Shown: piece after piece, positions 389 to 58,244 of the stretch
Position numbering within the stretch: position 1 is the stretch's first letter
How the letters are laid out: each line of letters starts with the position of its first letter
Origin: Dictyostelium discoideum
Taxonomy: Eukaryota
Length of the DNA: 64,000 nt
Assembly (NCBI GenBank): GCA_000004695.1
Contig: CM000153.2
Span: 352,001-416,000 of the forward strand
Reading direction: 5' to 3'
The notes under the pieces: generated by a model
What the model was told of the DNA's origin: nothing
Seen by the model: only the letters and a program-made list of their open reading frames with translations
Databases searched by the model: none
Program-made: the position numbers and the translations under genes

Positions 389-481
389 GTGGATAAACAA
401 AAAAGGATATAGGTAAAACATTATTATTTTATTTTATTTAACTTTATATTATTATTTTTTTTTTTTTTTTTTTTTTTTTTA

Positions 482-1822
482 TTATTTTTGTTTTAAAGTG
501 AATTTATTTGGAAAATGAATGATGGTTTGATAGACAATCCGAGAAACAAGTTCATTGGCCCTATTTTCCATACTTGGGATATCTTCTCCATTGTAGCGGC
601 CACTCAACAAATAATTTAGATAGTTTTGATTTTCATTAAATTCCCTTTTAATATTTAGTTCGTAAGGACCAATAGATGCTGTAATTTCTTTACTGTTTAT
701 ATAAGAATTGAAATAAGTTCTTTTATCACTTTCAACATGTGAAATTTCCATCTTTGTTTGATTTAAAAAATAAAAAGAATCATTGTATATTAAATTACTG
801 GTAATGCTTCCATTGATTATTTTATTATCTGTACCATTTTGTTTAAAAATTGAAAGTAAATCTTGATTTTTAAACCAAGGTAATTCCAATAATTGTTTAG
901 CACAGTACCTAGAATTTGGATCGACCCTAAGAGCATATCCCAATACTTCTTTACATTCATTTGATAAATAGCTATGAATTATTGGAAAATTATTAGAATC
1001 TTTTTTCAAATCACCAAACATTTCAAGAATGGCTAATCCGAAACACCAAATATCAGCTTTTCTTCCTTTTTTACCATTAGTGAAATTTTCCGGTGGAAGG
1101 TAATCATAGGTTCCTGCAAGAGAACTGAATATGGAGTTATCTGGTTCCCTTATTACTGACAACCCAAAATCAATTAATATTGGGTCATTATTTTCATCCA
1201 ATAAAATATTATTAATTTTGATATCTCTATGAATTATCGGATTTTCAAGAGAGTGTAAATAGTTGATAGCTTCTAAAAGCTTTTTAAATAATTTCCTACC
1301 TTCAGAATTTGTAAATGTTGGTGATTTTGCTATAGTTCTAAGTGTACCTTTTTCATAATATTTCATGATTATATAGTAAAACCTATCATCTCTACCCCAC
1401 CCAATTAATTTTATAATGTTTGGGTGGTCTAATGATTCAAGGATTCCGATTTCACTTTTAATCTAATTTTTAAAAATAAAAAATAATAAAAAAGAAAAAA
1501 CACTATTAGTAATAATTTTTATATATGATTAAAAATTAGGTTAATCAACTTATTTTACCTTTGATTCATTATTTTTAATTTCTATTTTTTTTATTGCAAT
1601 TGATTCATAGTTATTATTGTTATTGTTGTTATTGTTTATTAAATTTTCATTTTTTTTTTTTTTAAATAGTTTAACTTTCCCAAATGCTCCATTTTTAATA
1701 GAGTTACTAAATTGGTATTGATCTATGTCAAATTCAGATGAAAACTTCCTTTGAATAAAGTTAAATTCAGATGAAAACTTGCTTTTCTTATCCCCACCTT
1801 GATGTATTGTTAAACCAGTCAT
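482..1822 (-). CDS. Ser/Thr protein kinase. Kinase-domain exons are 482..1462 and 1559..1822. The intron 1463..1558 has donor AAG|GTAAAA and acceptor AATTAG|.
   Basis: The translation contains GAFGKV (glycine loop), AIKKI (catalytic Lys), HPNIIKL, HRDIKINNILL, DFGLS and a kinase C-lobe. When spliced the exons are in phase. The stop is at 482-484. Confidence 0.8.
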
Positions 1823-18290: not shown

Positions 18291-20918
18291 TTAAATATTT
18301 GAAATGAATAATGAAATTATTATAATGATTAAAATTGATAATAATAGATTTTGAAAGATATTTCTAGCATCAGAGTATTGATGAACATCATCAGATTGAG
18401 TTAAATATTTGAATACTTTTGATATACCACTTTTACCATTGGTTGAAACATTGATAAATATCATTTCACCATTTTTAATATTATTAAATGTATAATTAGT
18501 TGCTTGAATAAAACATGTTATCATTGTATCATTAATATACTTTGCTTCATTACAATTTAAACTACTATTACCACTACCATTACCATTACCAATTATTGTA
18601 ACTTTATCAATTGGATAATAGAAATCATTTCCAATAATTGTTAAAATACCTCCTTGTTTTAAATTAATTATACTAGTTTGATTAATTGATGGTGATTTAT
18701 ATATAAAACTAAATGTTGATACTATATTATTATCATTATTAAATAATAATTTACAAGTTTTACCATTTGGACCATTTAATTTAATGTAGCATTCTAATGA
18801 TGTACTGCTATTATTTAATTTACATTCTTTTTCTATAATTTGTTCACCATTACATTCAATTGTAAAATTTGTATTATTATTTAAATATTTACCAATAATA
18901 ATGATATTACCACCATTTGTATCAAACAAGTTAGGAATCGATACATTTTTAAAAATTGGAAATGTATTAATATTTACTTTATTTGATAATAAACCACATA
19001 CATTTAAATACAATTCACCAAGAATATTATACTCATCATTCATTTGAAATGATATTGATTCATAAATACTATTATTAATTTCTTTACTAAGGGCTATTGA
19101 TTGACCTGAAATAAAAATACTTGTTTCATTATATTTATTTACAAAACCTTTACCAATACAAGTAACAATTTCATTTGAATTTAAATTACATTTATTAATC
19201 AATGGTGATTCATATGAAAATGATGATTGATATATTTGATTACCAATTTCAATTTCATAATTTATAATACCACAATTATTTTCAATTAAAAATGAACATG
19301 ATACAACACTTTCATTTACATTGGTTGAAATTGATTTACTTGTTTGATTTGATTTTTCATTAATTATTTTAATTGTTGGTATTAAATTAATATTACTTGA
19401 ATTTACATAAAATAATGTAAAATTAATTAATTTATTACTAACCAATGGAATTTCATTTATTCTTGCATACATTTCTACATCTACATTGATTCCATTTGAT
19501 TTGATTGAATTTGATTCAATTGAAATGTTGAAATTATAAATTTGATTTTGTATTTTTAATATTAAATCTGTTTCATCATTATTAATTGATTTTATTTGGC
19601 CAAAAACTTGTTTATCATTGATATGAATTTGAGTTGAATTAATATTACCAAAACAACCACCAATTATATGAATTTCATCATTAACTTGAGAGAATGTTGT
19701 AATATACGGAGTATCATAAATTAATAATAATGTATTTGTATTTACGACATCATTAATCGATACAGCAATTGGTGATGAATTATTAAATGTTGAATTTGAT
19801 AATGGTTGTAAATTACATTTAATTTCATTTGAAGATGACGAAACAATTGAACAAATAGAATCACCAACTGTTACTGATATATTATTATTATTTGATGATG
19901 ATGGTGATGAAGTTAATCTATTACCATTAATTATTAATAAACCACCTTTTAATTTTGGAATACTATTTACAATTGATGGAATTGGTGGATATGTAATTTG
20001 AAATTGAGATGACCAATAATCACAACAACCGACTTGAACATTAAATTTTGATGAGAATGGATCTGAATAATTAAATTTTAATTTAATAATTTCAAAATCA
20101 ACTGAAATAATATCATTTGGGTCAATAATGTTATTATCAATTTTAACAGAAACAAAAATTGATTGATTATAGAAATTTGTACCAGTTATATCAAGAAATG
20201 ATTGATTAATATCAATTTTTTCAATGTTTGGCTCTTGATATGTAAAATTCAATGTTTCATGATTCTCCCAAATAATTGTTCTGTATCCACAACCTGGATA
20301 GACTTTTAAAATTAAATTTATTCTATCAGGTGTTTTTGATTGAAACACACCAGGAATTAAATATACATAGCCAGAATAAAAAAACTGATCTTTTCTATAG
20401 GAATTTTCAAATTGAACATATATTCTTTCTTTTAACTCTAAATAATAACCGCTTAATGTTGTATTTCCACCTCTTGTTTTTGGTTTAAACTCTGAAATTA
20501 ATAATGGACTTGGGAAATAAAATAAAGGAAGATCATAACCACACATTTTAAAAGTACCATTATTTTCTGTACATGCAGATATTTCCTCTGAATACATTTG
20601 AGCATGATCAGATTCTTTCACTGGTAAAGTACAAGTTCTAATTGTATTATTTAAAACACAATTAAAACTCATATCATAACGACTTTTACCTTTCCATAAA
20701 AATGAAATATTTGTATAATAATTTTCTATTTCACGATATCTAATCACAAGAGAATCATTGTGACTTTCATAACCTAAAAAAATAATTAATAAATTATTAA
20801 TATATTAAAAAAAGGGACAAGAAAAAAAAAAAAACAATTTACCCAAAGGAATTACTTCGTCATAAGAAATGGAAAATGAAAATAAATAAAAAAGTATAAA
20901 AAATAATAATATTTTCAT
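18291..20918 (-). CDS. Signal-peptide type-I membrane glycoprotein with about 5 IPT/TIG-like repeats and a C-terminal TM; Tgr (tiger)-like family candidate. Exons are 20843..20918 and 18291..20773.
   Basis: Exon 1 MKILLFFILFYLFSFSISYDEVIPL (signal peptide) has donor G|GTAAAT, and the acceptor TTTTTTAG|GT joins in phase to ...GYESHNDSLVIRYREIE. The repeated motif P.I.S..P..GG..I.I.G..L/F is typical of IPT/TIG domains. There are many NxS/T sites and a terminal hydrophobic helix LLLSILIIIIISLFISNI. Confidence 0.55.
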
Positions 20919-44518: not shown

Positions 44519-45346
44519 TTACTTTTTGAAATTTCTAATCATTGTATAAAAGTGTGGTGCATCTTGTGTATTTGAATGTTGTTGATAAAATTTTGAAGTT
44601 TTAAAATTATGAGTTTTAAAGAATTGAGTGAATTCTAAATCACATTCAGTATAGATTGAAGCATTTTGACTATCAGCTAAATTTAAGACATGTTGAATTA
44701 AATCACTACCTCTTTTACTACGTCTATAGGAATGTTCAATTGCAATACAATTTAAATACCAATGTTTGTTTGGATGATTTTTCATCTCAGCTTGATGTAT
44801 ACGTTCTGCGAAATCTGATGATTTTAAAATTCTTGATAAAACTGATACACCCAATTTAATTGGTGCCATATACATACCAACTTTAAACATCTCTGCAATG
44901 CTAACACCATTTACATCATGTGGTGGTTGTGCTATCATTATACCACTAATTGTTTGTTTATTATTATTATTATTATTACTATTATTACTATTATTATTAC
45001 TATTATTATTAAGTTCAAAACATCCCCAAACTCTTGCTTTTTTTAAAGCATAGGTTAACATTTTATTACAAAACCAAGTTCCACCACTGATACGATATTC
45101 TGGTGAATTGTTGAAAAAGAAATTCATAAATATATCCTCACGTGTTGATTTCTCTAATAGTATTGCTGCTTCTTGAATATCATCTTGACAAAGTTCTCTT
45201 ATTATATATGGTTTATTTTTTGGTGTTTCTTTTATAGCTTTTTCTCCATTATTATTATTATTATTTATATCTCTAAAGTTTTCAATGTTTTGAATATTTG
45301 ATGACGATGATTCATCTGGTTGTTGATGATGTAATTGTTTATCTTT

Positions 45347-45384
<38 letters not shown>

Positions 45385-45589
45385 CCATATGTTTTATAAT
45401 ATCCCTTAAAGAATAATTTGGAGTAAGATCATTGGTTGTTATTTTAATATTACAAATTGGACATGTTTCTTTTTTTTGTAACCAAACTATAATTGAATCA
45501 TTAGAGAATGAATGACCACATAATTTAGAAATTACTGGATCACTCATTATTTCCATTGTTATGGGATCTAATAAAATATCATTATCCAT
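44519..45589 (-). CDS. U-box domain protein with a C-terminal GNAT-like acetyltransferase-fold domain
   Basis: The N-terminus LLDPITMEIMSDPVISKLCGHSFSNDSIIVWLQKKETCPICNIKITTNDLTPNYSLRDII fits the U-box consensus. The C-terminus ...WYLNCIAIEHSYRRSKRGSDLIQHVLNLADSQNASIYTECDLEFTQFFKTHNFK resembles GNAT motif A/B. Confidence 0.6.
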
Positions 45590-46212: not shown

Positions 46213-46570
46213 TTGGATATTGATAGAAAAGAGCTTTCCATGGAAAGTAAAAAAAATAAAAATAGTAAAAAAAAAATAAATAAAAATAAAATTAATAAAA
46301 ATAACAATAAAAATAAACAACATGACAGATTATTAGGTGGTACTTCTATCACATGTGTTGATCAACTACAACAACAACAACAAAAAAAACAACAGCAACA
46401 ACAACAACAACAAAATATAACTTTAAATTTTGAAATTTTACCAAAGAAATCGTTAGAGAGTTCAAAAATATTTAGAAATTCAAGAGTAATTTACACTACA
46501 TATGGAAATGTGAGTTTAGTTAGTGCTAATCAAACTGGTTTTTTCCCTAATAATAATAATAATAATAATA

Positions 46571-46654
<84 letters not shown>

Positions 46655-46960
46655 GTAATAATAATGAATATAGTCTTTGTGTAAATAAAACTAAAAGTCT
46701 TGGGGATAAAATTGGACAACTGAATGAAAAAATAGAACAACAAGAGAGATTACTTGAAACAACTAAAATAAATGATAGTCCAACTGACAGTAAAAACAAT
46801 AGTAGCAATAACATTAACTGTAGCAGTAGCAGTAGCAGTAGCAGTAGCAGTAGCAGTAGCAGTAGCAGTAGCAGTAGCAGTAGCAGTAGCAGTAGCAGTA
46901 GCAGTAGCAGTAGCAGTAGCAGTAGCAGTAGCAGTAGTGGTGGCAGTTACAGTAATATTA

Positions 46961-46991
<31 letters not shown>

Positions 46992-47035
46992 TAGTAATAA
47001 TAATGCTAATAGTAATAATAATAATAATAATGATG

Positions 47036-47089
<54 letters not shown>

Positions 47090-47952
47090 GTAATAATAAT
47101 AAATGCCTTAACAAACCTGTTTTTTTGTGTTGTAAAATAAAAATCTGTCTTGATTGTGCATTAGAATCTCATCCAAAACACAAATATGCTTTAATCGAAA
47201 ATAATCATAGTAATAATAAAAGTGTACTTGACAATAATGATAATAAAAAAACTGTTATTGATTTAAATCAACAAAAGGAACTACCAACTGAAGATAATAT
47301 TTTAAAACCTCAAGCACTTCCAAAAGATGAAATTAATGATATTGCAGAGAAAACAAAGGATTTGAAATCAGTAAGGTGTAGTTTTCATAACAAAAATATA
47401 AACTCTCTATGTATATCTTGTGAGTTGGTTCCATTATGCGAGGAGTGCAAGACTAATCACAGAGGACACGAATTAGATAACTTGGATGAAAAAGTTGGTG
47501 GTTTTTTCAAGAGTTTAGACTTAAAACGACTTTACACAGATCTAAATAATGAAGAAAACTCTAAACATATAAATAAATATGCAGATGGGAATTTTTCTAA
47601 AGACTTCAACGAAATTTCTCAAGAATTTGAAAAGAAATTTAAAAAAGAAGTAATTTCTGTTCAAGAACAATTCAATAAACGAGATTCGGATTTCATAAGA
47701 AAAAAAACCAAACTTGAAGAAAAAAACAAATGTTTAATAGAAATGGGGGAACGTGTTTTAGAAAATGGTCATTTATATAATCCAAACTCTTTGAACGAAT
47801 CAGTTCACTATTATCAAAGGTTAATAGAATTGGTCCTAATTTCAAAAGAATTAGGGTTTAAACCAATAGATTTCCGTTCCTTGTTTCCTACAATTAGTAA
47901 ATTTTTATCGGAAATTAAAACCCTCGAAACTGATATCAATAATTTTTTATAA
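46213..47952 (+). CDS. B-box zinc-finger protein with poly-N and poly-S tracts (family member 1)
   Basis: B-box-like Cys/His clusters are CLNKPVFLCCKIKICLDCALESHPKH and CSFHNKNINSLCISCELVPLCEECKTNHRGHELD. The C-terminal region LIEMGERVLENGHLYNPNSLNESVHYYQRLIELV is shared with the 55180 gene. Confidence 0.7.
46830..46936 (+). repeat. (AGCAGT)n hexanucleotide repeat encoding a run of about 36 serines in B-box gene 1
   Basis: Direct reading. It lies inside the ORF and in frame. Confidence 0.9.
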
Positions 47953-48626
47953 ACAATTAGTATCATAAAACCATTTTATTATTTTTTTTTTGGTTTATTT
48001 TAATTTTAACCTGGAAATAATAAAAATAAAAAACCCAAAACATTTGAATCTGACAAAATTTTTTTTTTTTTTGGATTTTTTAAAATTTAGTCAAAAAAAA
48101 AAAAAAAAACAGAATGATTACCTTTTTTTTTTTTTTTTTTCTTTTATATCATTTTGTGTATTTTTGAGTGCTCTATTTATCTATACAAAACTCATATTAA
48201 AAATAAATAAAATTAAATTGTTGTTAAACACAACAAATTCAAAATGTGGGACTTTGTTAAAAGTGAGAATTTTTATATGGCCAAATTAAAAAAATTTGCT
48301 TTTATGCCTATGTTTTATACAAATAAAACCAGATTTTACAAAAATAAAATTAAAAAATAAATATTTAACAGTGTTTCTGAATTGTGGTATTTTGTTAAAA
48401 TAAAATAATAAAAAAATTAATCCAAACCAGCAAAATTGCAATTTTATTTTTTTTTTTTTTTTAAACAAAATGCCAATTTTTAACCGCTATTAGTGAATGG
48501 CCACAATTTTAATATAAATGTTTTTACCATCACGATATTATTTTAAAAAATTTCACTTTTTTTTTTTTCAAATTTTCTTTTTTTTTTTTTAAATTTTTTT
48601 TATTTTTTATTTTTTATTTTTTTTTT

Positions 48627-49257
48627 TTGTTTATTTACCAAAAAATGATAAACTCAGAAAAACAATGTATACATCACAATAGAGATTTGGTAGTATTTTG
48701 TTTAAGTTGTTGTTATCCATGTTGTGTTGAATGCATGGCAAGTGAAAAACATCACTACCACGATTTTAAAAAAATAGAAGATGATAACTTTGATGTTTAC
48801 GATAATAAAAAAATTATCTCAATTCTAGAAAAATCAAAAGAAATTTTTGAAAATAAAAAAGCAAGTTACTATATAGATATCAAATCAGTTCATGATGGGT
48901 TTATTTTGATTCAAGAGCAATTAGAATTATTTAAAGATGGCATTTTAGAAAAACTGTTTAATTCTTTCAAGGAAAATTTGGTCATTAATGCAAAGATTGA
49001 AACTTTGGCTGGTGATATTTTAGTCACTGATAAAAATAGTGTATTTAAAATGATCGATCAATATAAAGAAAATAATATGGTAGGTTTGGTTCATACTTTG
49101 GTAGATAATATAAAAAACAATATAAACAATTGTTTTCAACAATTTAATGGAAACTATACAATTAATAAAAATAAAGATGCTGATAAAATTTCTGATTTTG
49201 AAAAAGGAACTATAGATCATATAAATAACAATCAAAATAATACCATCGTAAATAATA

Positions 49258-49317
<60 letters not shown>

Positions 49318-51732
49318 TTTTAATAGATAATAATGATAATATTAAAATAATAGTACCAAAAGATGTTGAATCATTGTCCTTAGATGGTTTAAAACAAGAA
49401 TTAATTATTGACTCAATTCCTAATTCTGTAATTCATCCCCCTTTAGAAGATGAATTCAATAAATGTACATTACACCCAAACAAAGACATAATATCCTTGT
49501 GTTTATATTGTGAATTAATGCCATGTTGTGCTCTATGTATATCAAGTGAAGGGGAGCATCATGGTCATAATTCTGATTCATTAAAATCAACTTCAAATAT
49601 TCTTTCATTAGCGAAAAATTTTAAAGATGATATATATCAAAAAGTAATAGGCAGAATAGAATCAAATCAAAAAATATTAAAAAAATCAAATGATATATAC
49701 TATGAAATTAAAAGAATTTACGATATTATTTCAATGATAGATTTAGATATTAAAAAACAATTAGAAACAACCTTTGACGATAATACATTAATAATAAATA
49801 CAAGTATAACTTCAATCAATAATGAAAATGAAATACTCTCAACAATAATTAATAATAATAAACATAACGATAATGATGTTGATAATGGTCAAACAGTAAT
49901 TGAAATATTAAATCAAATTATTATAAAAAACAATCAACAACTTGATAGAGATACAATTAAAATTATTAAACAATATCAACAATCATTAATAGTATTAAAT
50001 AATTATAATAATATATATAATTTTAATAAATTAAAAGAATATAAAAACCAAAGTATTCATTTTAATAATCAAATAATTGATGATATTAAAAATAATTTAA
50101 ATTCAATTTATATCTTAAATGACACTAATATTCATAAAAATAATAGATACAAAGTAGAAATCGATGAAAACAATAATGAATTTATTAACTGTAAGTTTTA
50201 TTTATACAAATTTTTTATAAATGATATTCACAATCTTCTAATTACCAAATATAGATGATGGTTTAAAGTTTTATATTTATACATATAGTGATTCTTTTAA
50301 ATTAAAAAATGGTTGTGGTATAGCATTTACAGACCATTGTAATATTTTATCAAAATTAAAAAATAAATTACCATTAAATGTAATGCTGTTAGATGGATTC
50401 AATCAAAAATTAACACCAGGTATATTACCAGAAGGTGTTCAGTTATTGTATTTAGGTGATATTAAACAAGAATTAATGATTGGTTCAATTCCTAAAACTG
50501 TATTTAATGTCTATTTACTTGATGGATTCAATCAAAAACTATTACCAGAACGTGTTCGATCATTGCATTTAGGTGATATTAAACAAGAATTAATGATTGC
50601 TTCAATTCCTAAAACTGTATTAAGTCTCTATTTAGAAAATGGATTCAATCAAAAATTAACACCAGGTATATTACCAGAAGGTGTTAGATCATTGTATTTA
50701 CGTGATATTAAACAAGAATTAATAATTGGTTCAATTCCTAAAACTGTATCTAGTGTCCATTTAGAAAATGGATTCAATCAAAAATTAACACCAGGTATAT
50801 TACCAGAAGGTGTTATATCATTGTATTTATGTGATATTAAACAAGAATTAATAATTGGTTCAATTCCAAAAACTGTATATAGTGTCCATTTAGAAAATGG
50901 ATTCAATCAAAAATTAACACCAGGTATATTACCAGAAGGTGTTAAATTATTGTATTTAGGTGATATTAAACAAGAATTAATGATTGGTTCAATTCCTAAA
51001 ACTGTATCTAGTGTCCATTTAGAAGATGGATTCAATCAAAAACTAACACCAGGTATATTACCAGAAGGTGTTAAATCATTGGATTTAGGTGATATTAAAC
51101 AAGAATTAATAATTGGTTCAATTCCTAAAACTGTATCTAGTGTCTATTTAGAAAATGGATTCAATCAAAAATTAACACCAGGTATATTACCAGAAGGTGT
51201 TGAATCATTGGATTTAGGTGATATTAAACAAGAATTAATGATTGGTTCAATTCCTAAAACTGTATCTAGTGTCTATTTAGAAAATGGATTCAAACAAAAA
51301 TTAACACCAGGTATATTACCAGAAGGTGTTAAATCATTGCATTTATGTGATATTAAACAAGAATTAATGATTGGTTCAATTCCTAAAACTGTATTTAGTG
51401 TCTATTTAGAAAATGGATTCAATCAAAAATTAACACCAGGTATATTACCAGAAGGTGTTAAATCATTGCATTTACGTAATATTAAACAAGAATTAATGAT
51501 TGGTTCAATTCCTGAAACTGTATCTAGTGTCCATTTAGAAAATGGATTCAATCAAAAATTAACACCAGGTATATTACCAGAAGGTGTTAAATTATTGCAT
51601 TTAGGTGATATTAAACAAGAATTAATAATTGGTTCAATTCCTAAAACTGTAACTGAAGTGGTTATTTTTAGTAGTTTTAAACTACAAATTAAACCTTATG
51701 TTTCTGATACTGTTAAAATAACTATCGTGTAA
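48627..51732 (+). CDS. B-box zinc-finger plus FNIP-repeat protein (family member 2). Exons are 48627..50190 and 50255..51732.
   Basis: Two B-boxes are CIHHNRDLVVFCLSCCYPCCVECMASEKHHYHDF and CTLHPNKDIISLCLYCELMPCCALCISSEGEHHGHN. The donor AACT|GTAAGT at 50191 and acceptor ATATAG|AT at 50254 join in phase (..EFIN-Y-DGLKF..) into 17 tandem FNIP units (LENGFNQKLTPGILPEGVKSLYLGDIKQELMIGSIPKTVSSV). Confidence 0.65.
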
Positions 51733-51949
51733 AAAAAAAAAAACGGGTTTAATAAAGAATTCCAATAAAAAAAAATTGAAACCACAACATTTTAATTACT
51801 TTTTTTTTTTTTTTTTTTTTTTTTCCTTAAACCCTTAAAAACAAGTTAGAGTATTAGAACTAACCAATTATTCAACTTCAACTTCAATATCAATATCAAT
51901 ATCAATATCAACTTCAACTTCAACGAGCCCACATCGAGATCAACATCAA

Positions 51950-52090
51950 AAGCAAAGTCTTGGGGAGAAAATTAGACAACTTAACAAAGAAAATAAGACA
52001 ATAAGAAATATAACTTGAAACAACTAAAACAAATGATAGTCCTCCTGAAAAACAATAGTAATAGTAGTAGTAATAGTAGTAGTCAGCGGT
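51950..52090 (+). pseudogene. Fragment copied from inside the B-box gene at 46213
   Basis: The stretch AAGTCTTGGGGAGAAAATTAGACAACTTAACAAAGAAAATAAG...GAAACAACTAAAACAAATGATAGTCC closely matches 46695..46790 (SLGDKIGQLNEKIEQ...LETTKINDSP), but stops occur in every frame. Confidence 0.55.
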
Positions 52091-52467
52091 GGTAGTAGCA
52101 CAATTTAATTATCATTACCAAAATATAATCAAATTCCATTCAGATATTAAATATTCAAATTGAGATTATAATTGATGAAAATGAAATTATCAAAGATTTA
52201 TCATCAATTGTTGTAGGGAAATTTCAAAAAAATTTCACTACATTAACAGTAGTGATTTTTTGCAGTGAAAAACCAAAATGTATATTCAGTGAAAAAATTA
52301 ATAAACAATTACTTGATTGTTTAGATTAACAATTTACTTTCAAATTTGCGCCAAATTTTTTTTTTTTTTTAATTTTTTTTTAATTTTTTTTTTTTAATTT
52401 TTATAAAAAATATAAATATAAAAATGAAATAAAAAATTAAAGAAATATGAAAAAATGAAATAATAAC

Positions 52468-52601
<134 letters not shown>

Positions 52602-52711
52602 TTAATAATAATTAATAATAATTTAAACTGTTTAAAAATAGTTGTTTTTTATTGTTTTGGTTAACAATTTTTATATTTTATTTTTCTTATTATTAAATTT
52701 ATTGTTATATA

Positions 52712-53456
52712 ATGGAAATAGAGATATTAAAACTCATAATATTTTATTGGATGGAAAATAATGATCCAATATTAATTGATTTTGGATTGTCAATAATAAA
52801 GGAACCAGATAACTCCAATTTTACTTCTAAATGTGGAACCACAAAATATTTACCACCAAAAAATTCCACTATGACTGATAAAGCTGATATTTGGTGTTTC
52901 GGATTAGCCATTCTTGAAATGTTTGGTGAATTGAAAACAGATTCGAATAATTTGCCAATAATTCATACTCATTTATCAAATGAATGTAAAGAAGTATTGG
53001 AACAGCTCTTAGGGTCGATCCAAATCATAGGTACAGTGCTAAACAATTATTGGAACTACCTTGGTTTAAAGATAAAGATTTACTTTCAATTTTTAAACAA
53101 AATGGTACAGATAATAAAATAATCAATGGAGGTATCACCATTAATTTAAAATACAATGATTCTTATTATTTTTTAAATCAACAAAGATGCAAATTCCACA
53201 CGTTGAAAGTGATAAAAGAACTTTTTTCAATTTTTATATAAACACTAAAGAAATTACAGAAACTATTGGTCCTTACGAATTAAATATTAAAAAAGAGTTT
53301 AACGAAAATCAAAACTATCTAAATTATTTGTTGAGTGGCCGCTACAATGGAGAAGATATTTCAAGTATGGAAAATAGGGTCAATGAACTTGTTCCTCGGA
53401 TTGTCTATCAAACTATTATTCATTTTCCAAATAAATTCATTTTAAAACAAAAATAA
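52712..53456 (+). pseudogene. Truncated, frameshifted copy of the Ser/Thr kinase gene at 482..1822
   Basis: The pieces NNDPILIDFGLSIIKEPDNS..., ADIWCFGLAILEMFGELKTDSNNLPIIH, ELPWFKDKDLLSIFKQNGTDNKIING and ...NELVPRIVYQTIIHFPNKFILKQK are near-identical to the left-end kinase but are split over three frames. Subdomains I-VI are missing. Confidence 0.75.
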
Positions 53457-53619
53457 AAAAAAAAAAACTAAAATAAAATATAATAATGTTTTACCTATAT
53501 CCTTTATGGATAAAAAGTGTTTTTTTGTATATCCCCTCAATCCTTTTTTTAAAAATAATTATTCAAGAACAACAACAATTATCATTACCACTTTTTTTAA
53601 TTTTAATCAAAAATTAGTA

Positions 53620-53930
53620 CCTGGAATATTATATTGGATCCACTTTCTATGCAAAAAGGTGATATTAAACTACAAGTGATAGTTTCAATTCCCAATATTG
53701 TAAAAACTATCTATATAGAAAGTGGATTCAATAAGTATAAACACCTGCTATATCACACAGGGTGTTATAAAATTGCATTTAGGTGGATTATACCAATGTT
53801 TCAAAGAAGAAAAAGCAAGAAAAGTTTTCATTCCAAAATTTTCAATATTTCAAGGAGGAGAAAAAAAACGATTTCAGTTGGTAACCAACAACAAATTGAA
53901 ACTAATCAAAAATCAAACTAACAACCATTA
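53620..53930 (+). pseudogene. Degenerate FNIP-repeat fragment
   Basis: VPGILYW...TIYIESGFNKYK... and VIKLHLGGLYQ echo the FNIP unit (TPGILPEGV...VYLENGFNQKL...LHLGDIKQ), with stops and frame changes. Confidence 0.45.
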
Positions 53931-54180
53931 ATTTTTTAGGTATTGATTAACCAATTTAAATCACCTTAATGACCCGACCATCACTCAACTCAAAGGCATT
54001 ACTTTCAAAAATTATAAAACATAAAATAAATATGTTATTAAACTCTTAAAGAGTTTGATGTAGTCAACTTGTTGTTGATCTATATTCTCTATCAAAAACC
54101 TAATTTGTAAATAAAAAAAAATAAAAAAAGGCCTTGTTGCCATTTTTATTTTAAAATTATCTTTTATTTGTTTTTTTTTT

Positions 54181-54600
54181 CAATATGACTTTGAATGAGT
54201 TACCTGTACCCCATGCTCATCTTCTTTATAATAGGATGGTATGTGTACTTCTATTGTATTTAACTTGATTACTTTTAAACTCTTGGGATTAGTGCATCTT
54301 AATAATCGGAACTAAATTGCTTCAGTTGTTGTTAAATATGAACCTGATTGTTTTAATCTCCTTAAAGAGGCTGTATATTCTAAATAGGTAATTGATGCTG
54401 TTGCAAAAATAACAAAACTAAATAATAATAGTAACAATAAATTAGTTAAAAATTTTTTTAATTTAATTTTTACCTCTGAATCAGATGATATTACTGTTCT
54501 GAGGAATCTATTTTATTCAAATTTAAAATTCATCTATATGTTTTTTAAAATCTTTTTTATATATTGAAAAAAGTGTTTTTTCAAAAACAAGATGATTCGA
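54181..54600 (-). pseudogene. Degenerate partial copy of the isochorismatase paralog at 57273..58244
   Basis: 54181..54420 aligns to 57281..57500 (...CTGTACCCCAT.CTCAT.CTCTTTATAATAGGATGGTA... and CTTCAGTTGTTGTTAAATAT..ACCTGATTGTTTTAATCTC.TTAAAGAGGCTGTATATTCTAA). 54520..54600 aligns to 57871..57930. In-frame stops are present. Confidence 0.6.
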
Positions 54601-55179: not shown

Positions 55180-56038
55180 ATGGAAGATGAAGAGGATATT
55201 TTTGAAGATGTTGGAATTTTTAATTTTAATTTTCCAAGTATGTTTAAATCTTCTGGAAATGTTAATGATAATGATGGTTTCAGATGTTCGCAAGCAAATT
55301 GTAATAAAGCTTTTAAAAACAAAGGTCAACTATCTTCGCATGTTAGATGGCATAGAAGACTTGATGCACAATTAGAAAGTGAAACCGATAATGGTGAAGA
55401 AGAAGAGTATTCAAATCCAATTAAACCTTCACAAAGAGGAATTCAATTAAGAAATCAAATGATTCGTTATGGCTTAAGTTTATTTAGAGTAGATTCTCAT
55501 GGAAAATACCTTTGTTTCTTTGAAGGTTGTAATCTTCGAATGCTAACAAACTTTTCTAGACATATCCATAAACATGAACAAAGAAATGACAAAATTAAAC
55601 CTGATCTTGTTGATTTAATTCCAAACTCAAATAATATTCCAGAAACCCAAAATATAAGGCCATATTCTTTACCTTCATCACCAACAAATTGTAAAATTTC
55701 ACCAGTTTTTTCAAAAAACATTCAAAATTTAATTATTAATCAAAATAAATATAACAACAATTATAATACCAATAATACCAATAATAACTCTAATAATACA
55801 AATAGTAATACAAATAATTATAACCATAATGAAGAAAATCAAAAAACAATTGATTTTGATTTTAGAAAAAAAAATTTAAAATTTTTTAAAAATAAAATTG
55901 AATATAAAAATAAAAATGTTGTAAATAATAAAATTAATACTAATAATATTATTAATAATAATGATGAAAATAATGAAATTAATGAAATTAATGAAATTAA
56001 AGAAATTAACGAAACTAATGAAATTAGTATTAATAATC

Positions 56039-56106
<68 letters not shown>

Positions 56107-57147
56107 TATAATAGTAATTGGTTGAAAGGTGATCAAAAGTCAGTCTTTGAAAATATAATAAAAGAAACAAAATTAAAATTATTACATAGTGGAAAAGAAG
56201 ATCTCTCTACAAAAAAAAAGGATTTCAACAATGATCCATCGCAAAGATTTATTTTCAAAATTCAAAGAAAATTTGTAAAATATATGGTTTCTAAGTACTT
56301 AGAAAATCATACAATAATTCATAATCCAGAACAACTTAAATTATGTGCGCCACCAATCATTAAAGAATATCTTGAAGAATTAATGTTGGAACAATCTAGT
56401 TTTAAAGAATTTTGTGATTTAATTGCAACAAATATTGGAAATGATAAAATTTTTGATGGAATAATTAAAAACAATAATTTAATGAGCATTAATTTTATAA
56501 ACAACAATAATAATATTAATAAAAAAAGTAAAGATCAAAATATAGAAAATATTAAGGATTTACAATCAATTAGATGCAGCCATCACTCTGATAAATTCAT
56601 TAACTTTATATGCAAAGATTGCAACTATCTACCATGTTGCGAGAGATGTAAAGATATTTTTTATCATAAAAGACACCAAGTTGAAGAATTGGATGAAATC
56701 AATGTTGACAATTTCATAAACAATTTAGATAGAAAACGTTTTAATATTGAAGTAATTAATGAAAACAATTGTCAATCTATAAATAAAAAAATAAATGGAC
56801 TTGGTTTGGGACATTTCAAAGAAACTCTTACAAATTTAATAGATAAAATAAATAAATGTGTATCAAAGACTATTGAACCACAATTTACAGATAGGGAAAT
56901 AAAAAACTTGGAGAAAATCATTACAATTGATGAAAAAAACAATAAATTAAAAGAAATGGGTGAACTTGTTATGCAGAATGGTGATTTAAAAAATCCAAAT
57001 TCTTTAAAAACTGCCGTTCACTATCTTCAAAATTTAGTGGAATTTGAAGAAATTAAAAAAGATTTGGAATTTACTCGTATAAATTTTGAAAAATTATTGG
57101 ATCTACTCAAATTGTTTGAATCAACAATTTCAAACCCCAATTGGTAA
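55180..57147 (+). CDS. C2H2 plus B-box zinc-finger protein (family member 3)
   Basis: FRCSQANCNKAFKNKGQLSSHVRWH and YLCFFEGCNLRMLTNFSRHIHKH are C2H2 fingers. CSHHSDKFINFICKDCNYLPCCERCKDIFYHKRHQVEELDE is a B-box. The C-terminus LKEMGELVMQNGDLKNPNSLKTAVHYLQNLVEF is paralogous to the 46213 gene. (AAT)n encodes poly-N. Confidence 0.7.
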
Positions 57148-57185: not shown

Positions 57186-57272
57186 CCATTTAAAAAATTG
57201 TATACATTTAAATAAACTTTTATTATTTTTTAATTTTAAATTTTTGAATGGCGTAGTTGTTTGTTTGTTTTT

Positions 57273-58244
<972 letters not shown>

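What the first reader, a model, noticed from the sequence alone, without database searches (positions are those of the whole stretch)
48627..51732. B-box zinc-finger gene apparently spliced to a highly homogenised 17-unit FNIP repeat array, within a tandem three-gene B-box family
Three consecutive plus-strand genes (46213, 48627, 55180) share B-box Cys/His modules and a conserved C-terminal segment. The middle gene carries a GTAAGT donor at 50191 and an AG acceptor at 50254. These put the B-box ORF in phase with the downstream ORF, which consists of 17 tandem 23-aa FNIP units arranged as 46-aa double units. Many units are identical at the nucleotide level over 40 nt or more (GGATTCAATCAAAAATTAACACCAGGTATATTACCAGAAGGTGTT). 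That implies very recent expansion or ongoing concerted evolution by unequal crossing-over. The FNIP repeat is a dictyostelid and giant-virus repeat, and B-box plus FNIP is a known dictyostelid architecture. The array here is unusually uniform.
Basis: partly seen in the sequence, partly recalled or inferred. Interest (0 to 1): 0.55.

Follow-up and report, generated by a model that had tools for sequence, protein, structure and literature searches.

The report
Fast-evolving B-box and FNIP-repeat amoeba gene
This is one intact, spliced Dictyostelium discoideum gene that joins two B-box zinc fingers to a very uniform leucine-rich (FNIP) repeat array; it is a new member of a known protein type, notable because the repeats differ almost only at their predicted binding-surface residues and the repeat number varies between strains.

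Summary
The core of the finding holds. The window is D. discoideum AX4 chromosome 4.

**Gene model.** ATG 48645, a 64-nt phase-1 intron at 50191..50254 and stop 51730-51732 give a 1007-aa protein. It has two B-box/helical modules and a C-terminal FNIP (LRR) solenoid. Two other strains and a paralog have an intron at the same site (72, 73 and 75 nt), with in-frame stops where checked.

**Corrections.**
- The array is 10 double units of 43 aa (129 nt), about 20 half-repeats, not 17 x 23 aa.
- The C-terminal segment is shared only by the two flanking genes.
- Pseudogene debris lies between the middle gene and the third gene.

**Homogenisation is supported.**
- Copy number differs between strains (10, 10 plus an extra half-unit, 8).
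- Strain-specific variants have spread across units.
- Silent-site divergence among units is below allelic divergence.
- The array is identical in an independent assembly and is the most uniform of 34 family members.

**New observations.**
- Differences between units sit at the LxxLxLxx x positions (Fisher p 4e-5 to 1.5e-7 in AX4).
- The gene's amino-acid divergence is about 10-20 times that of its neighbours, yet the reading frame stays intact.

Function is inferred: a B-box/coiled-coil scaffold with a variable recognition surface. This is a new member of a known kind, of moderate interest.

The parts
48645..50190 (+). Exon 1 (aa 1-515 plus the first base of codon 516): two B-box/helical modules
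   Evidence: The ORF and splice reconstruction give 1007 aa with no internal stop. The orthologous reading frame is intact in L004 and L005.
48666..48761 (+). B-box 1, ligand pattern C-x2-H-x7-C-x2-C-x4-C-x2-C-x5-H-x2-H (C8..H39)
   Evidence: One of two Pfam zf-B_box stretches. The ligand spacing was read directly from the sequence.
49251..49352 (+). (AAT)n tract encoding the poly-Asn linker
   Evidence: TRF reports period 3 with 34 copies. Its length varies between strains.
49365..49430 (+). Relic single FNIP half-unit (VESLSLDGLKQELIIDSIPNSV) between the two modules
   Evidence: 50-58% identity to array units, E 1e-5 to 3e-4. Present in L004, largely deleted in L005.
49464..49568 (+). B-box 2
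   Evidence: Best Pfam zf-B_box stretch, aa 272-311. AF2 pLDDT is about 80, and Foldseek matches the MuRF1 B2 box with probability 0.98 but E 0.1.
49590..49829 (+). Long predicted helix after B-box 2 (candidate coiled coil), followed by shorter helices up to the exon end
   Evidence: AF2 helix at residues 55-134 of the 254-aa segment, pLDDT 60-78. Confidence is low to moderate.
50191..50254 (+). Phase-1 intron, 64 nt, GTAAGT...TTCTAATTACCAAATATAG, 17% GC
   Evidence: Homologous introns of 72, 73 and 75 nt occur in L004, L005 and paralog P0001; the three strain copies have in-frame stops if read through.
50255..50388 (+). Start of exon 2: N-terminal cap of the LRR domain, coding sequence upstream of ATG 50383
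   Evidence: Conserved at protein level in orthologs and paralogs. AF2 predicts strands here at low pLDDT.
50389..51666 (+). FNIP/LRR array: 10 double units of 129 nt (unit 2 is 117 nt), 20 half-repeats
   Evidence: PDB Crov588 match at E 2.7e-59. AF2 pLDDT 83.9 with one strand per 21-22 residues. Foldseek match to 6nyr at E 1.2e-22.
51667..51732 (+). C-terminal tail (FSSFKLQIKPYVSDTVKITIV) and TAA stop
   Evidence: The tail resembles the ends of the paralogs (SFKHQIEPYV...). The tail differs in all three strains.
46240..47952 (+). Flanking gene 1: low-complexity N-terminus plus a C-terminal B-box and helical segment
   Evidence: Pfam B-box at E 2.6e-6. Paralogous to gene 3 over 195 aa.
55180..57147 (+). 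Flanking gene 3: weak C2H2 finger match, then B-box and the same C-terminal segment as gene 1
   Evidence: Pfam B-box at 20.4 bits, below the 24.1 cut-off; the C2H2 match at 19.4 bits is also below its 25.2 cut-off. 41% identity to gene 1, E 2e-31.
51954..54405 (+). Pseudogene debris: gene-1 fragment (51954-52100), kinase fragment (52718-53487), FNIP unit (53657-53785), copy of 57257-57504 (54164-54405)
   Evidence: Self-BLAST identities of 78%, 88%, 76% and 85%. The kinase fragment and the 54164-54405 copy had no counterpart in the parts of L004/L005 that were fetched.

Best explanation
**What is shown.** This is one protein-coding gene of D. discoideum AX4 chromosome 4, with two exons and 1007 aa.
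- Exon 1 encodes two B-box type-2 zinc fingers. The second is followed by a predicted helical, probably coiled-coil, segment; the first was not modelled. A poly-Asn linker and one relic FNIP unit separate the two modules.
- This layout suggests an old in-frame fusion of two B-box-FNIP genes.
- A conserved phase-1 intron joins exon 1 to exon 2.
- Exon 2 encodes an LRR solenoid of 20 FNIP (IP22) repeats arranged as ten 43-aa double units.
- Recurrent unequal crossing-over or gene conversion keeps the array uniform. Repeat number and strain-specific variants therefore differ between strains.
- The differences that persist between units lie almost only at the x positions of the LxxLxLxx strand motif.
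- The whole gene evolves far faster than its neighbours, yet its frame is preserved.

**What is inferred.**
- The B-box/helical part oligomerises or docks the protein.
- The concave LRR face binds a variable protein partner.
- The protein therefore works like a RING-less TRIM-type adaptor. The only studied B-box-FNIP protein, AreA, binds Atg101 and modulates autophagy.
For: **Organism.** Exact matches to KMO_DICDI and DDB_G0283191 place the window in AX4.

**Gene model.** Supported. An independent annotation of an identical sequence (L003) spans 48645..52018 for 1062 aa. Among models that keep the 64-nt intron, only adding one 121-nt 3' intron reproduces that length.

**Domains.**

**Array statistics.**
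- Units 3-9 are 94-97% identical.
- Mean differences per 129 nt within arrays are AX4 8.6, L005 11.0 and L004 12.4, against 12.3-13.0 between strains.
- Codon 1 is GAA in 8 of 9 AX4 units but C-initial in the other strains. Codon 36 is AAT in 7 of 8 L005 units but AAA in the others.
- Double-unit counts are 10, 10 (with an extra half-unit) and 8.

**Position of the variation.**
- pN at x positions versus scaffold is 0.215 vs 0.014 (AX4), 0.256 vs 0.023 (L004) and 0.137 vs 0.036 (L005).
- Variable residues fall in the x set at Fisher p 4e-5 to 1.5e-7 (AX4), 1e-5 (L004) and 0.017 (L005).
- Pooled minimum events at x codons are 29 nonsynonymous to 2 synonymous, against 10 to 5 in the scaffold, p 0.03.
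- AF2 places the strands on xLxL of the motif.

**Rate and constraint.**
- The non-repeat part has pN 0.07-0.115 and dN/dS 0.6-0.8. The neighbours have pN 0.003-0.010.
- A neutral simulation expects 7-10 stop codons, with P(no stop) at most 5e-4. All 6-10 indels are in frame.

**Literature.** AreA (PMC4554924); the FNIP LRR structure paper (PMC9525666).
Against: - No transcript data were available, so splicing and expression are inferred from conservation and from gene predictions only.
- dN/dS of 0.6-0.8 and three different C-termini are also what relaxed constraint would give.
- pN/pS above 1 at x positions rests on about 5 synonymous sites and is not significant on its own (binomial p 0.07 pooled).
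- The x-position set was defined from the LRR motif only after the pattern had been noticed.
- Homogenisation is clear in AX4, marginal in L005 and absent by the mean-distance measure in L004.
- The coiled-coil model has low confidence (pLDDT 57). Matches to TRIM structures beyond the B-box are not significant (E at least 0.01).
- No binding partner is known.
Confidence: 0.75

Rival explanations
1. The locus is a decaying pseudogene or a gene under fully relaxed constraint. On this reading the uniform array is simply young, and the variable positions are the ones that tolerate change.
For: - dN/dS is 0.6-0.8 overall and above 1 in some segments.
- The C-terminal tail differs in all three strains, and AX4 has a private 15-aa deletion.
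- Pseudogene debris surrounds the locus.
- No protein at 90% identity or more appeared in the protein searches.
Against: - The reading frame of 923-1045 codons is intact in three diverged alleles. A neutral simulation expects 7-10 stops, with P at most 5e-4.
- All indels are in frame, whereas the intron changes length by non-multiples of three.
- The B-box segments show dN/dS of 0.26-0.5 and keep their Cys/His ligands.
- Absence from the protein collection is uninformative. The annotated orthologs of L004 and L005, reconstructed uniquely from the annotated span and product length, are also absent from it.
Confidence: 0.1
2. These are two separate genes: a B-box protein ending at the TGA at 50256-50258, and a FNIP protein starting at ATG 50383.
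For: Both ORFs exist as such. ATG 50383 is the first ATG in the frame of the second ORF.
Against: - The 42 codons upstream of ATG 50383 are open and conserved at protein level in orthologs and paralogs.
- The GTAAGT...TATAG element is conserved in position and phase while its length varies over 64/72/73/75 nt.
- Paralogous proteins run without a gap across the junction.
- Three independent annotations call a single gene.
Confidence: 0.04
3. The uniformity reflects strong purifying selection on every repeat, or an assembly collapse or expansion, rather than unequal crossing-over or gene conversion.
For: Scaffold residues are almost invariant. Short tandem arrays can be misassembled.
Against: - Silent sites are homogenised too. 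pS among units is 0.02-0.07, against 0.11-0.14 between alleles of the non-repeat part.
- Copy number differs between strains, and strain-specific states have spread across units.
- The array is base-for-base identical in a second assembly, GCA_054883475.1, which differs from the window elsewhere by 23 gapped alignment columns (99.8% identity) over 11.7 kb.
Confidence: 0.06

Closest known systems
D. discoideum B-box-FNIP subfamily including DDB_G0289849, DDB_G0289777 and DDB_G0289799, and tandem clusters in D. cf. discoideum (P0001, P0002)
   Same: - 57-66% amino-acid identity from B-box 2 onwards.
- The same helical region and the same C-terminal tail motif.
- A phase-1 intron at the same position with a shared 3' end, shown for P0001.
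- The same 43-aa double FNIP unit.
   Different: - Those proteins have one B-box module and about 5-6 double units.
- Their adjacent-unit identity is at most 0.77, against 0.90-0.91 here.
- This gene carries an extra N-terminal B-box/helical module that has no detectable homolog.
- It lies on chromosome 4.
AreA (DDB_G0279871), the B-box plus FNIP protein that binds Atg101 (PMC4554924)
   Same: Both are Dictyostelium proteins that combine a B-box zinc finger with FNIP repeats. AreA is the only member of this architecture with functional data.
   Different: - AreA also has a DUF4559 domain, which Pfam did not find here.
- AreA itself did not appear among the hits; DDB_G0279899, a locus tag close to AreA's, matched at only 31% identity.
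- No interaction data exist for this gene.
Crov588 / Crov539 FGxxFN leucine-rich repeat proteins (PDB 6nyr, 7zal; PMC9525666)
   Same: - The same repeat family and fold.
- phmmer E 2.7e-59 and Foldseek E 1.2e-22.
- 22-residue LxxLxFGxxFNQxIxxxxLPxx units.
   Different: - Here every second repeat is 21 aa and has lost the FN motif (GD-IKQEL), which gives a 43-aa super-repeat.
- This is a cellular gene, not a viral one, and it is fused to B-boxes.
TRIM (RBCC) proteins
   Same: - A B-box type-2 ligand pattern followed by a long helix.
- A C-terminal variable binding domain.
- From general knowledge, some TRIMs are clustered and fast-evolving.
- Weak matches to the MuRF1 and KAP1 B-box/coiled coil.
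   Different: - No RING domain.
- The C-terminal domain is an LRR, not SPRY.
- Similarity beyond the B-box is not significant.
- The review read here names a single TRIM in D. discoideum, the TRIM37 ortholog DDB_G0273381 (PMC5758549).
LRR recognition receptors with hypervariable concave faces (plant NLR LRRs, lamprey VLRs; from general knowledge)
   Same: Variation is concentrated at the x positions of LxxLxLxx on a conserved scaffold. Arrays are shaped by unequal recombination.
   Different: - There is no NB-ARC or TIR domain and no somatic assembly.
- No ligand is known.
- Positive selection is not yet statistically established.

Membership tests
FNIP / FGxxFN leucine-rich repeat (Pfam PF05725) | Profile match above the curated cut-off | tested here: met
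   333.1 bits against a cut-off of 21, E 1.2e-101, 11 stretches.
FNIP / FGxxFN leucine-rich repeat (Pfam PF05725) | 22-residue hxxhxhxxxFNxxhxxxIPxx consensus in each repeat | tested here: inconclusive
   Alternate units fit the consensus (VxxVxLxxGFNQKLTPGILPEG, 22 aa). The other units are 21 aa and lack FN (VxxLxLxDIKQELxIGSIPKT).
FNIP / FGxxFN leucine-rich repeat (Pfam PF05725) | LRR solenoid fold like Crov588 | tested here: met
   AF2 pLDDT 83.9 and pTM 0.78, with one short strand per repeat. The best PDB match is 6nyr at E 1.2e-22, followed by TLRs and YopM. This is a predicted model, not an experimental structure.
B-box zinc finger (PF00643) | Profile match above the cut-off and the eight-ligand Cys/His pattern | tested here: met
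   33.5 bits against a cut-off of 24.1, in two stretches. B-box 1 reads C8-x2-H11-x7-C19-x2-C22-x4-C27-x2-C30-x5-H36-x2-H39, and the ligands are conserved in L004 and L005.
B-box zinc finger (PF00643) | Zinc binding | not testable with these tools
   Needs biochemical measurement.
TRIM / RBCC | N-terminal RING domain | tested here: not met
   Pfam gave no RING, U-box or related hit at E up to 1.
TRIM / RBCC | Coiled coil directly after the B-box | tested here: inconclusive
   AF2 predicts an 80-residue helix after B-box 2, but overall pLDDT is 57 and the model is a monomer. The KAP1 profile match has E 0.013.
B-box-FNIP subfamily (DDB_G0289849-like) | Shared B-box 2 and helical region, phase-1 intron position, 43-aa double unit and C-terminal tail | tested here: met
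   57-66% identity over 97-98% of the query. The intron lies at the same codon and phase and shares its 3' end. Period 43 is seen in family members.
Array under concerted evolution | Units more alike within an array than between orthologous arrays; copy-number variation; spread of lineage-specific variants; homogenised silent sites | tested here: met
   - Met for AX4 (8.6 vs 12.3), marginal for L005 (11.0 vs 12.4-13.0) and not met for L004 (12.4) on mean distance.
- Double-unit counts are 10, 10 plus an extra half-unit, and 8.
- Codon 1 and codon 36 states are strain-specific.
- pS among units is 0.02-0.07, against an allelic pS of 0.11-0.14.
Diversifying selection on an LRR surface | dN/dS significantly above 1 at surface positions | tested here: inconclusive
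   The ratio at x codons is 2.2-3.4 in each strain and 3.1 pooled, with p 0.07. The contrast with the scaffold gives p 0.03. The number of synonymous sites is small.

The most novel reading that the evidence does not exclude
B-box/coiled-coil/FNIP-LRR proteins may be RING-less functional analogues of TRIM 'receptor-regulators' in amoebae. On this reading, the gene's concave LRR face is under diversifying selection in wild D. discoideum because it recognises a variable target, such as a pathogen or giant-virus factor or a kin/self determinant. The B-box part would link the protein to the Atg1/Atg101 autophagy machinery, as AreA does.
Probability: 0.2. Interest if true: 0.7.

Novelty: new member of a known kind. 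Interest (0 to 1): 0.38.

Why it matters
[quoted passage not shown] Almost nothing is known about what they bind.

This gene offers a clean natural experiment. It has a near-identical repeat scaffold on which only the predicted contact residues differ. Its copy number varies between strains, and its amino-acid divergence is about 10-20 times that of neighbouring genes.

If the pattern holds across many strains, it would mark a family of candidate recognition proteins in a model phagocyte and give a concrete surface to mutate. As it stands, it mainly corrects and supports a gene model and documents concerted evolution in an ordinary member of a known architecture.

Tried and rejected
1. A search with the full-length protein returned only 2 hits. 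Only the 8000 candidates sharing most words were scored, and I suspect poly-Asn words crowded them. A query without the poly-Asn tract worked.
2. Exact look-ups of 8 versions of the proteins all failed: the 1007-aa and 1062-aa models, both separate ORFs, genes 1 and 3, and the L004 and L005 orthologs. The L004 and L005 proteins, reconstructed from the annotated spans, are also missing, so absence from the collection says nothing about annotation status. I could not find the AX4 gene identifier.
4. Module 1 (aa 1-205) gave no homolog at E up to 1e-3. The 'fusion of two family members' idea therefore rests only on the relic FNIP unit and the second B-box.
5. The B-box/helix model has low confidence (pLDDT 57). 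Its fold search gave no hit at E 1e-3 or better, so TRIM-like remains an analogy, not a membership.
6. The 387-nt period reported by TRF is not a higher-order repeat. Units three apart are no more alike than neighbours.
7. Literature searches for FNIP with positive selection or copy-number variation in Dictyostelium found nothing relevant.
8. L001 and L002 are paralogous clusters, not the orthologous locus. Genes 1 and 3 have no match there.
Full report
**Source of the window.** The window is about 21% GC. Two of its ORFs are exact matches to D. discoideum AX4 proteins: kynurenine 3-monooxygenase (Q54RE8) and DDB_G0283191. The finding therefore lies on AX4 chromosome 4, just downstream of DDB_G0283191 and a U-box gene.

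**Check of the observation.**
- GTAAGT begins at 50191, and the AG of ...AAATATAG ends at 50254.
- Joining ATG 48645..50190 to 50255..51732 gives 3024 nt, or 1007 codons, with no internal stop. Few other GT..AG pairs restore the frame, and this pair has the best consensus.
- Pfam finds FNIP at E 1.2e-101 and two B-box stretches. Gene 1 has a B-box above the cut-off. Gene 3 has one just below it, plus a C2H2 finger match that is also below its cut-off.
- The repeat period is 129 nt, or 43 aa. There are ten double units at 50389-51666, and unit 2 is 12 nt shorter. That makes about twenty 21/22-aa repeats, not 17 of 23 aa.
- The quoted 45-mer occurs seven times, and the longest exact repeat is 75 nt. 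Units 3-9 are 94-97% identical.

**The intron.**
- Two other D. discoideum assemblies carry the orthologous gene, annotated as one gene of 1045 aa (L004) and 923 aa (L005).
- In each, only one GT..AG pair reproduces the annotated length. It is the same GTAAGT...AAATATAG element at the same site, 72 and 73 nt long.
- Reading through gives stop codons in all three strains. The three lengths (64, 72, 73) do not preserve the frame, whereas every indel in the flanking coding sequence does.
- The paralog P0001 has a 75-nt phase-1 intron at the same codon, with the same 3' end TTCACA.TATTCTAATTACCAAATATAG. Its protein crosses the junction without a gap.
- The 42 codons upstream of ATG 50383 are conserved as protein, which argues against an independent start there.
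- No transcript data were available to me.

**Assembly and annotation.**
- L003 (GCA_054883475.1) is 99.8% identical to the window over 11.7 kb, with 23 gapped alignment columns. It is base-identical over 48400-52300, so a second assembly reproduces the array length.
- The L003 annotation spans 48645..52018 for 1062 aa. Among models that keep the 64-nt intron, only adding a 121-nt intron at 51729..51849 fits. That intron removes the TAA stop and reads into a gene-1-like pseudogene fragment.
- The paralogs end as the 1007-aa model does, so I consider that 3' extension doubtful.

**What the protein is.**
- The FNIP part matches the crystal structure of Crov588 at E 2.7e-59, half-unit by half-unit.
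- AF2 gives a regular solenoid (pLDDT 83.9) with one short strand every 21-22 residues, lying on the xLxL of the V/LxxLxL motif. The best fold match is Crov588, followed by TLRs.
- FNIP repeats are an LRR subclass (PMC9525666). Here every second repeat has lost the FN motif.
- B-box 1 has the full type-2 ligand spacing.
- B-box 2 is followed by an 80-residue predicted helix, but that model is weak (pLDDT 57) and its TRIM matches are not significant.
- Between the two modules lies one relic FNIP unit, with 50-58% identity to array units. This suggests an old fusion of two B-box-FNIP genes. Module 1 has no other detectable homolog.

**Family and context.**
- The closest relatives are AX4 DDB_G0289849 (66%), DDB_G0289777 and DDB_G0289799, together with tandem clusters in D. 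cf. discoideum.
- Genes 1 and 3 are paralogs of each other (41% over 195 aa). They share only the B-box with the middle gene.
- The 3.4 kb between the middle gene and gene 3 holds four decayed copies. They derive from gene 1, from the kinase at 451-1230, from a FNIP unit and from 57257-57504.
- The kinase fragment and the copy of 57257-57504 have no counterpart in the fetched parts of L004 and L005.

**Homogenisation.**
- Arrays have 10 (AX4), 10 plus an extra half-unit (L004) and 8 (L005) double units.
- Mean differences per 129 nt are 8.6 within AX4, against 12.3-12.4 between AX4 and the other strains. L005 is marginal (11.0) and L004 is not distinct (12.4).
- AX4 units 3-9 are each other's nearest neighbours.
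- Codon 1 (GAA) marks 8 of 9 AX4 units, and codon 36 (AAT) marks 7 of 8 L005 units.
- Some positional orthology survives: L004 unit 6 and L005 unit 4 differ at only 2 sites.
- Silent divergence among units (0.02-0.07) is below the allelic silent divergence of the non-repeat part (0.11-0.14). The uniformity is therefore not explained by protein-level selection alone.
- Adjacent-unit identity is 0.90-0.91 in all three alleles, against at most 0.77 in 31 relatives.

**Non-random variation.**
- Almost all differences between units change the amino acid. They fall at codons 18, 19, 21, 23, 24, 39, 40, 42, 1 and 2, which are the x positions of LxxLxLxx.
- Enrichment is strong: Fisher p 4e-5 to 1.5e-7 in AX4, 1e-5 in L004 and 0.017 in L005.
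- Pooled minimum events are 29 nonsynonymous to 2 synonymous at x codons, against 10 to 5 in the scaffold (p 0.03). The excess over neutral expectation at x codons alone is not significant (p 0.07).
- I noticed the pattern before fixing the position set, although the set follows the LRR motif.

**Rate and constraint.**
- Between strains the non-repeat part has pN 0.07-0.115 and dN/dS 0.6-0.8, falling to 0.26-0.5 in the B-boxes.
- The adjacent MFS and U-box genes have pN 0.003-0.010.
- Neutral simulation predicts 7-10 stop codons where none is seen (P at most 5e-4). All 6-10 indels are in frame. Slippage in the AAT tract inflates the second figure.

**Function (inference).**
- The only studied B-box-FNIP protein, AreA, binds Atg101 and dampens autophagy (PMC4554924).
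- TRIMs use a B-box/coiled-coil scaffold with a variable C-terminal domain as autophagy receptor-regulators (review PMC5758549).
- I therefore propose a RING-less adaptor of that kind, with the LRR concave face as the recognition surface.
- This is an analogy. The RING criterion for TRIM membership was tested and failed.

**Verdict.** This is a real, correctly spliced gene and a new member of a known Dictyostelium architecture. Its array is unusually uniform and varies in copy number between strains. It also shows a suggestive but unproven signature of surface diversification. Interest is moderate.

Noticed in passing
window 51729-52018: The annotation of the identical sequence in GCA_054883475.1 gives 1062 aa. 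It does so by splicing out the TAA stop with a 121-nt intron (GTAAAA donor) and reading into a gene-1-like pseudogene fragment. This is probably a prediction artefact.
   Followed up: partly
window 52718-53487 (+) and 451-1230 (-): An 88%-identical decayed copy of the C-lobe of the protein kinase gene at 482-1366 lies between the middle gene and gene 3, followed by a decayed FNIP unit at 53657-53785. Neither the kinase fragment nor the segment 54164-54405 was found in the fetched parts of strains L004 and L005.
   Followed up: partly
window 50227-50254; L004 16566-16593; L005 15684-15711; L001 10877-10904: The last ~28 nt of the intron (TTCACA.TATTCTAATTACCAAATATAG) are conserved between strains and in a 61-62%-identical paralog, while the 5' part of the intron varies. 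TTCTAAT may be the branch site.
   Followed up: no
window about 49680 (after ...SNDIY, aa 346): AX4 has a private 15-aa in-frame deletion in the helical region after B-box 2, relative to L004, L005 and the paralogs.
   Followed up: no
L004 13342-14321 and 19299-21592; L005 11581-13380: The flanking B-box genes differ in structure between strains. The gene-1 position in L004 carries only a 243-aa product. The gene downstream of the middle gene in L004 resembles gene 1 rather than gene 3 at DNA level. The cluster is structurally polymorphic.
   Followed up: no
window 18291-20747 (-): An ORF with a TgrO1-like Ig domain and an IPT/TIG domain, that is, a tgr-family member, lies about 28 kb upstream.
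   Followed up: no
window 44519-45589 (-): A gene with a U-box and a weak GNAT-like match sits head-to-head with B-box gene 1. An E3-type domain next to RING-less B-box genes is suggestive, but no link was tested.
   Followed up: no
L001 6042-15563 and about 19952-20158: D. cf. discoideum has a tandem cluster with four B-box/FNIP family genes plus a fragment. L002 has two family members, a fragment at its start and a FNIP-DUF4419 fusion prediction, next to a DDE transposase gene and a retrotransposon.
   Followed up: partly
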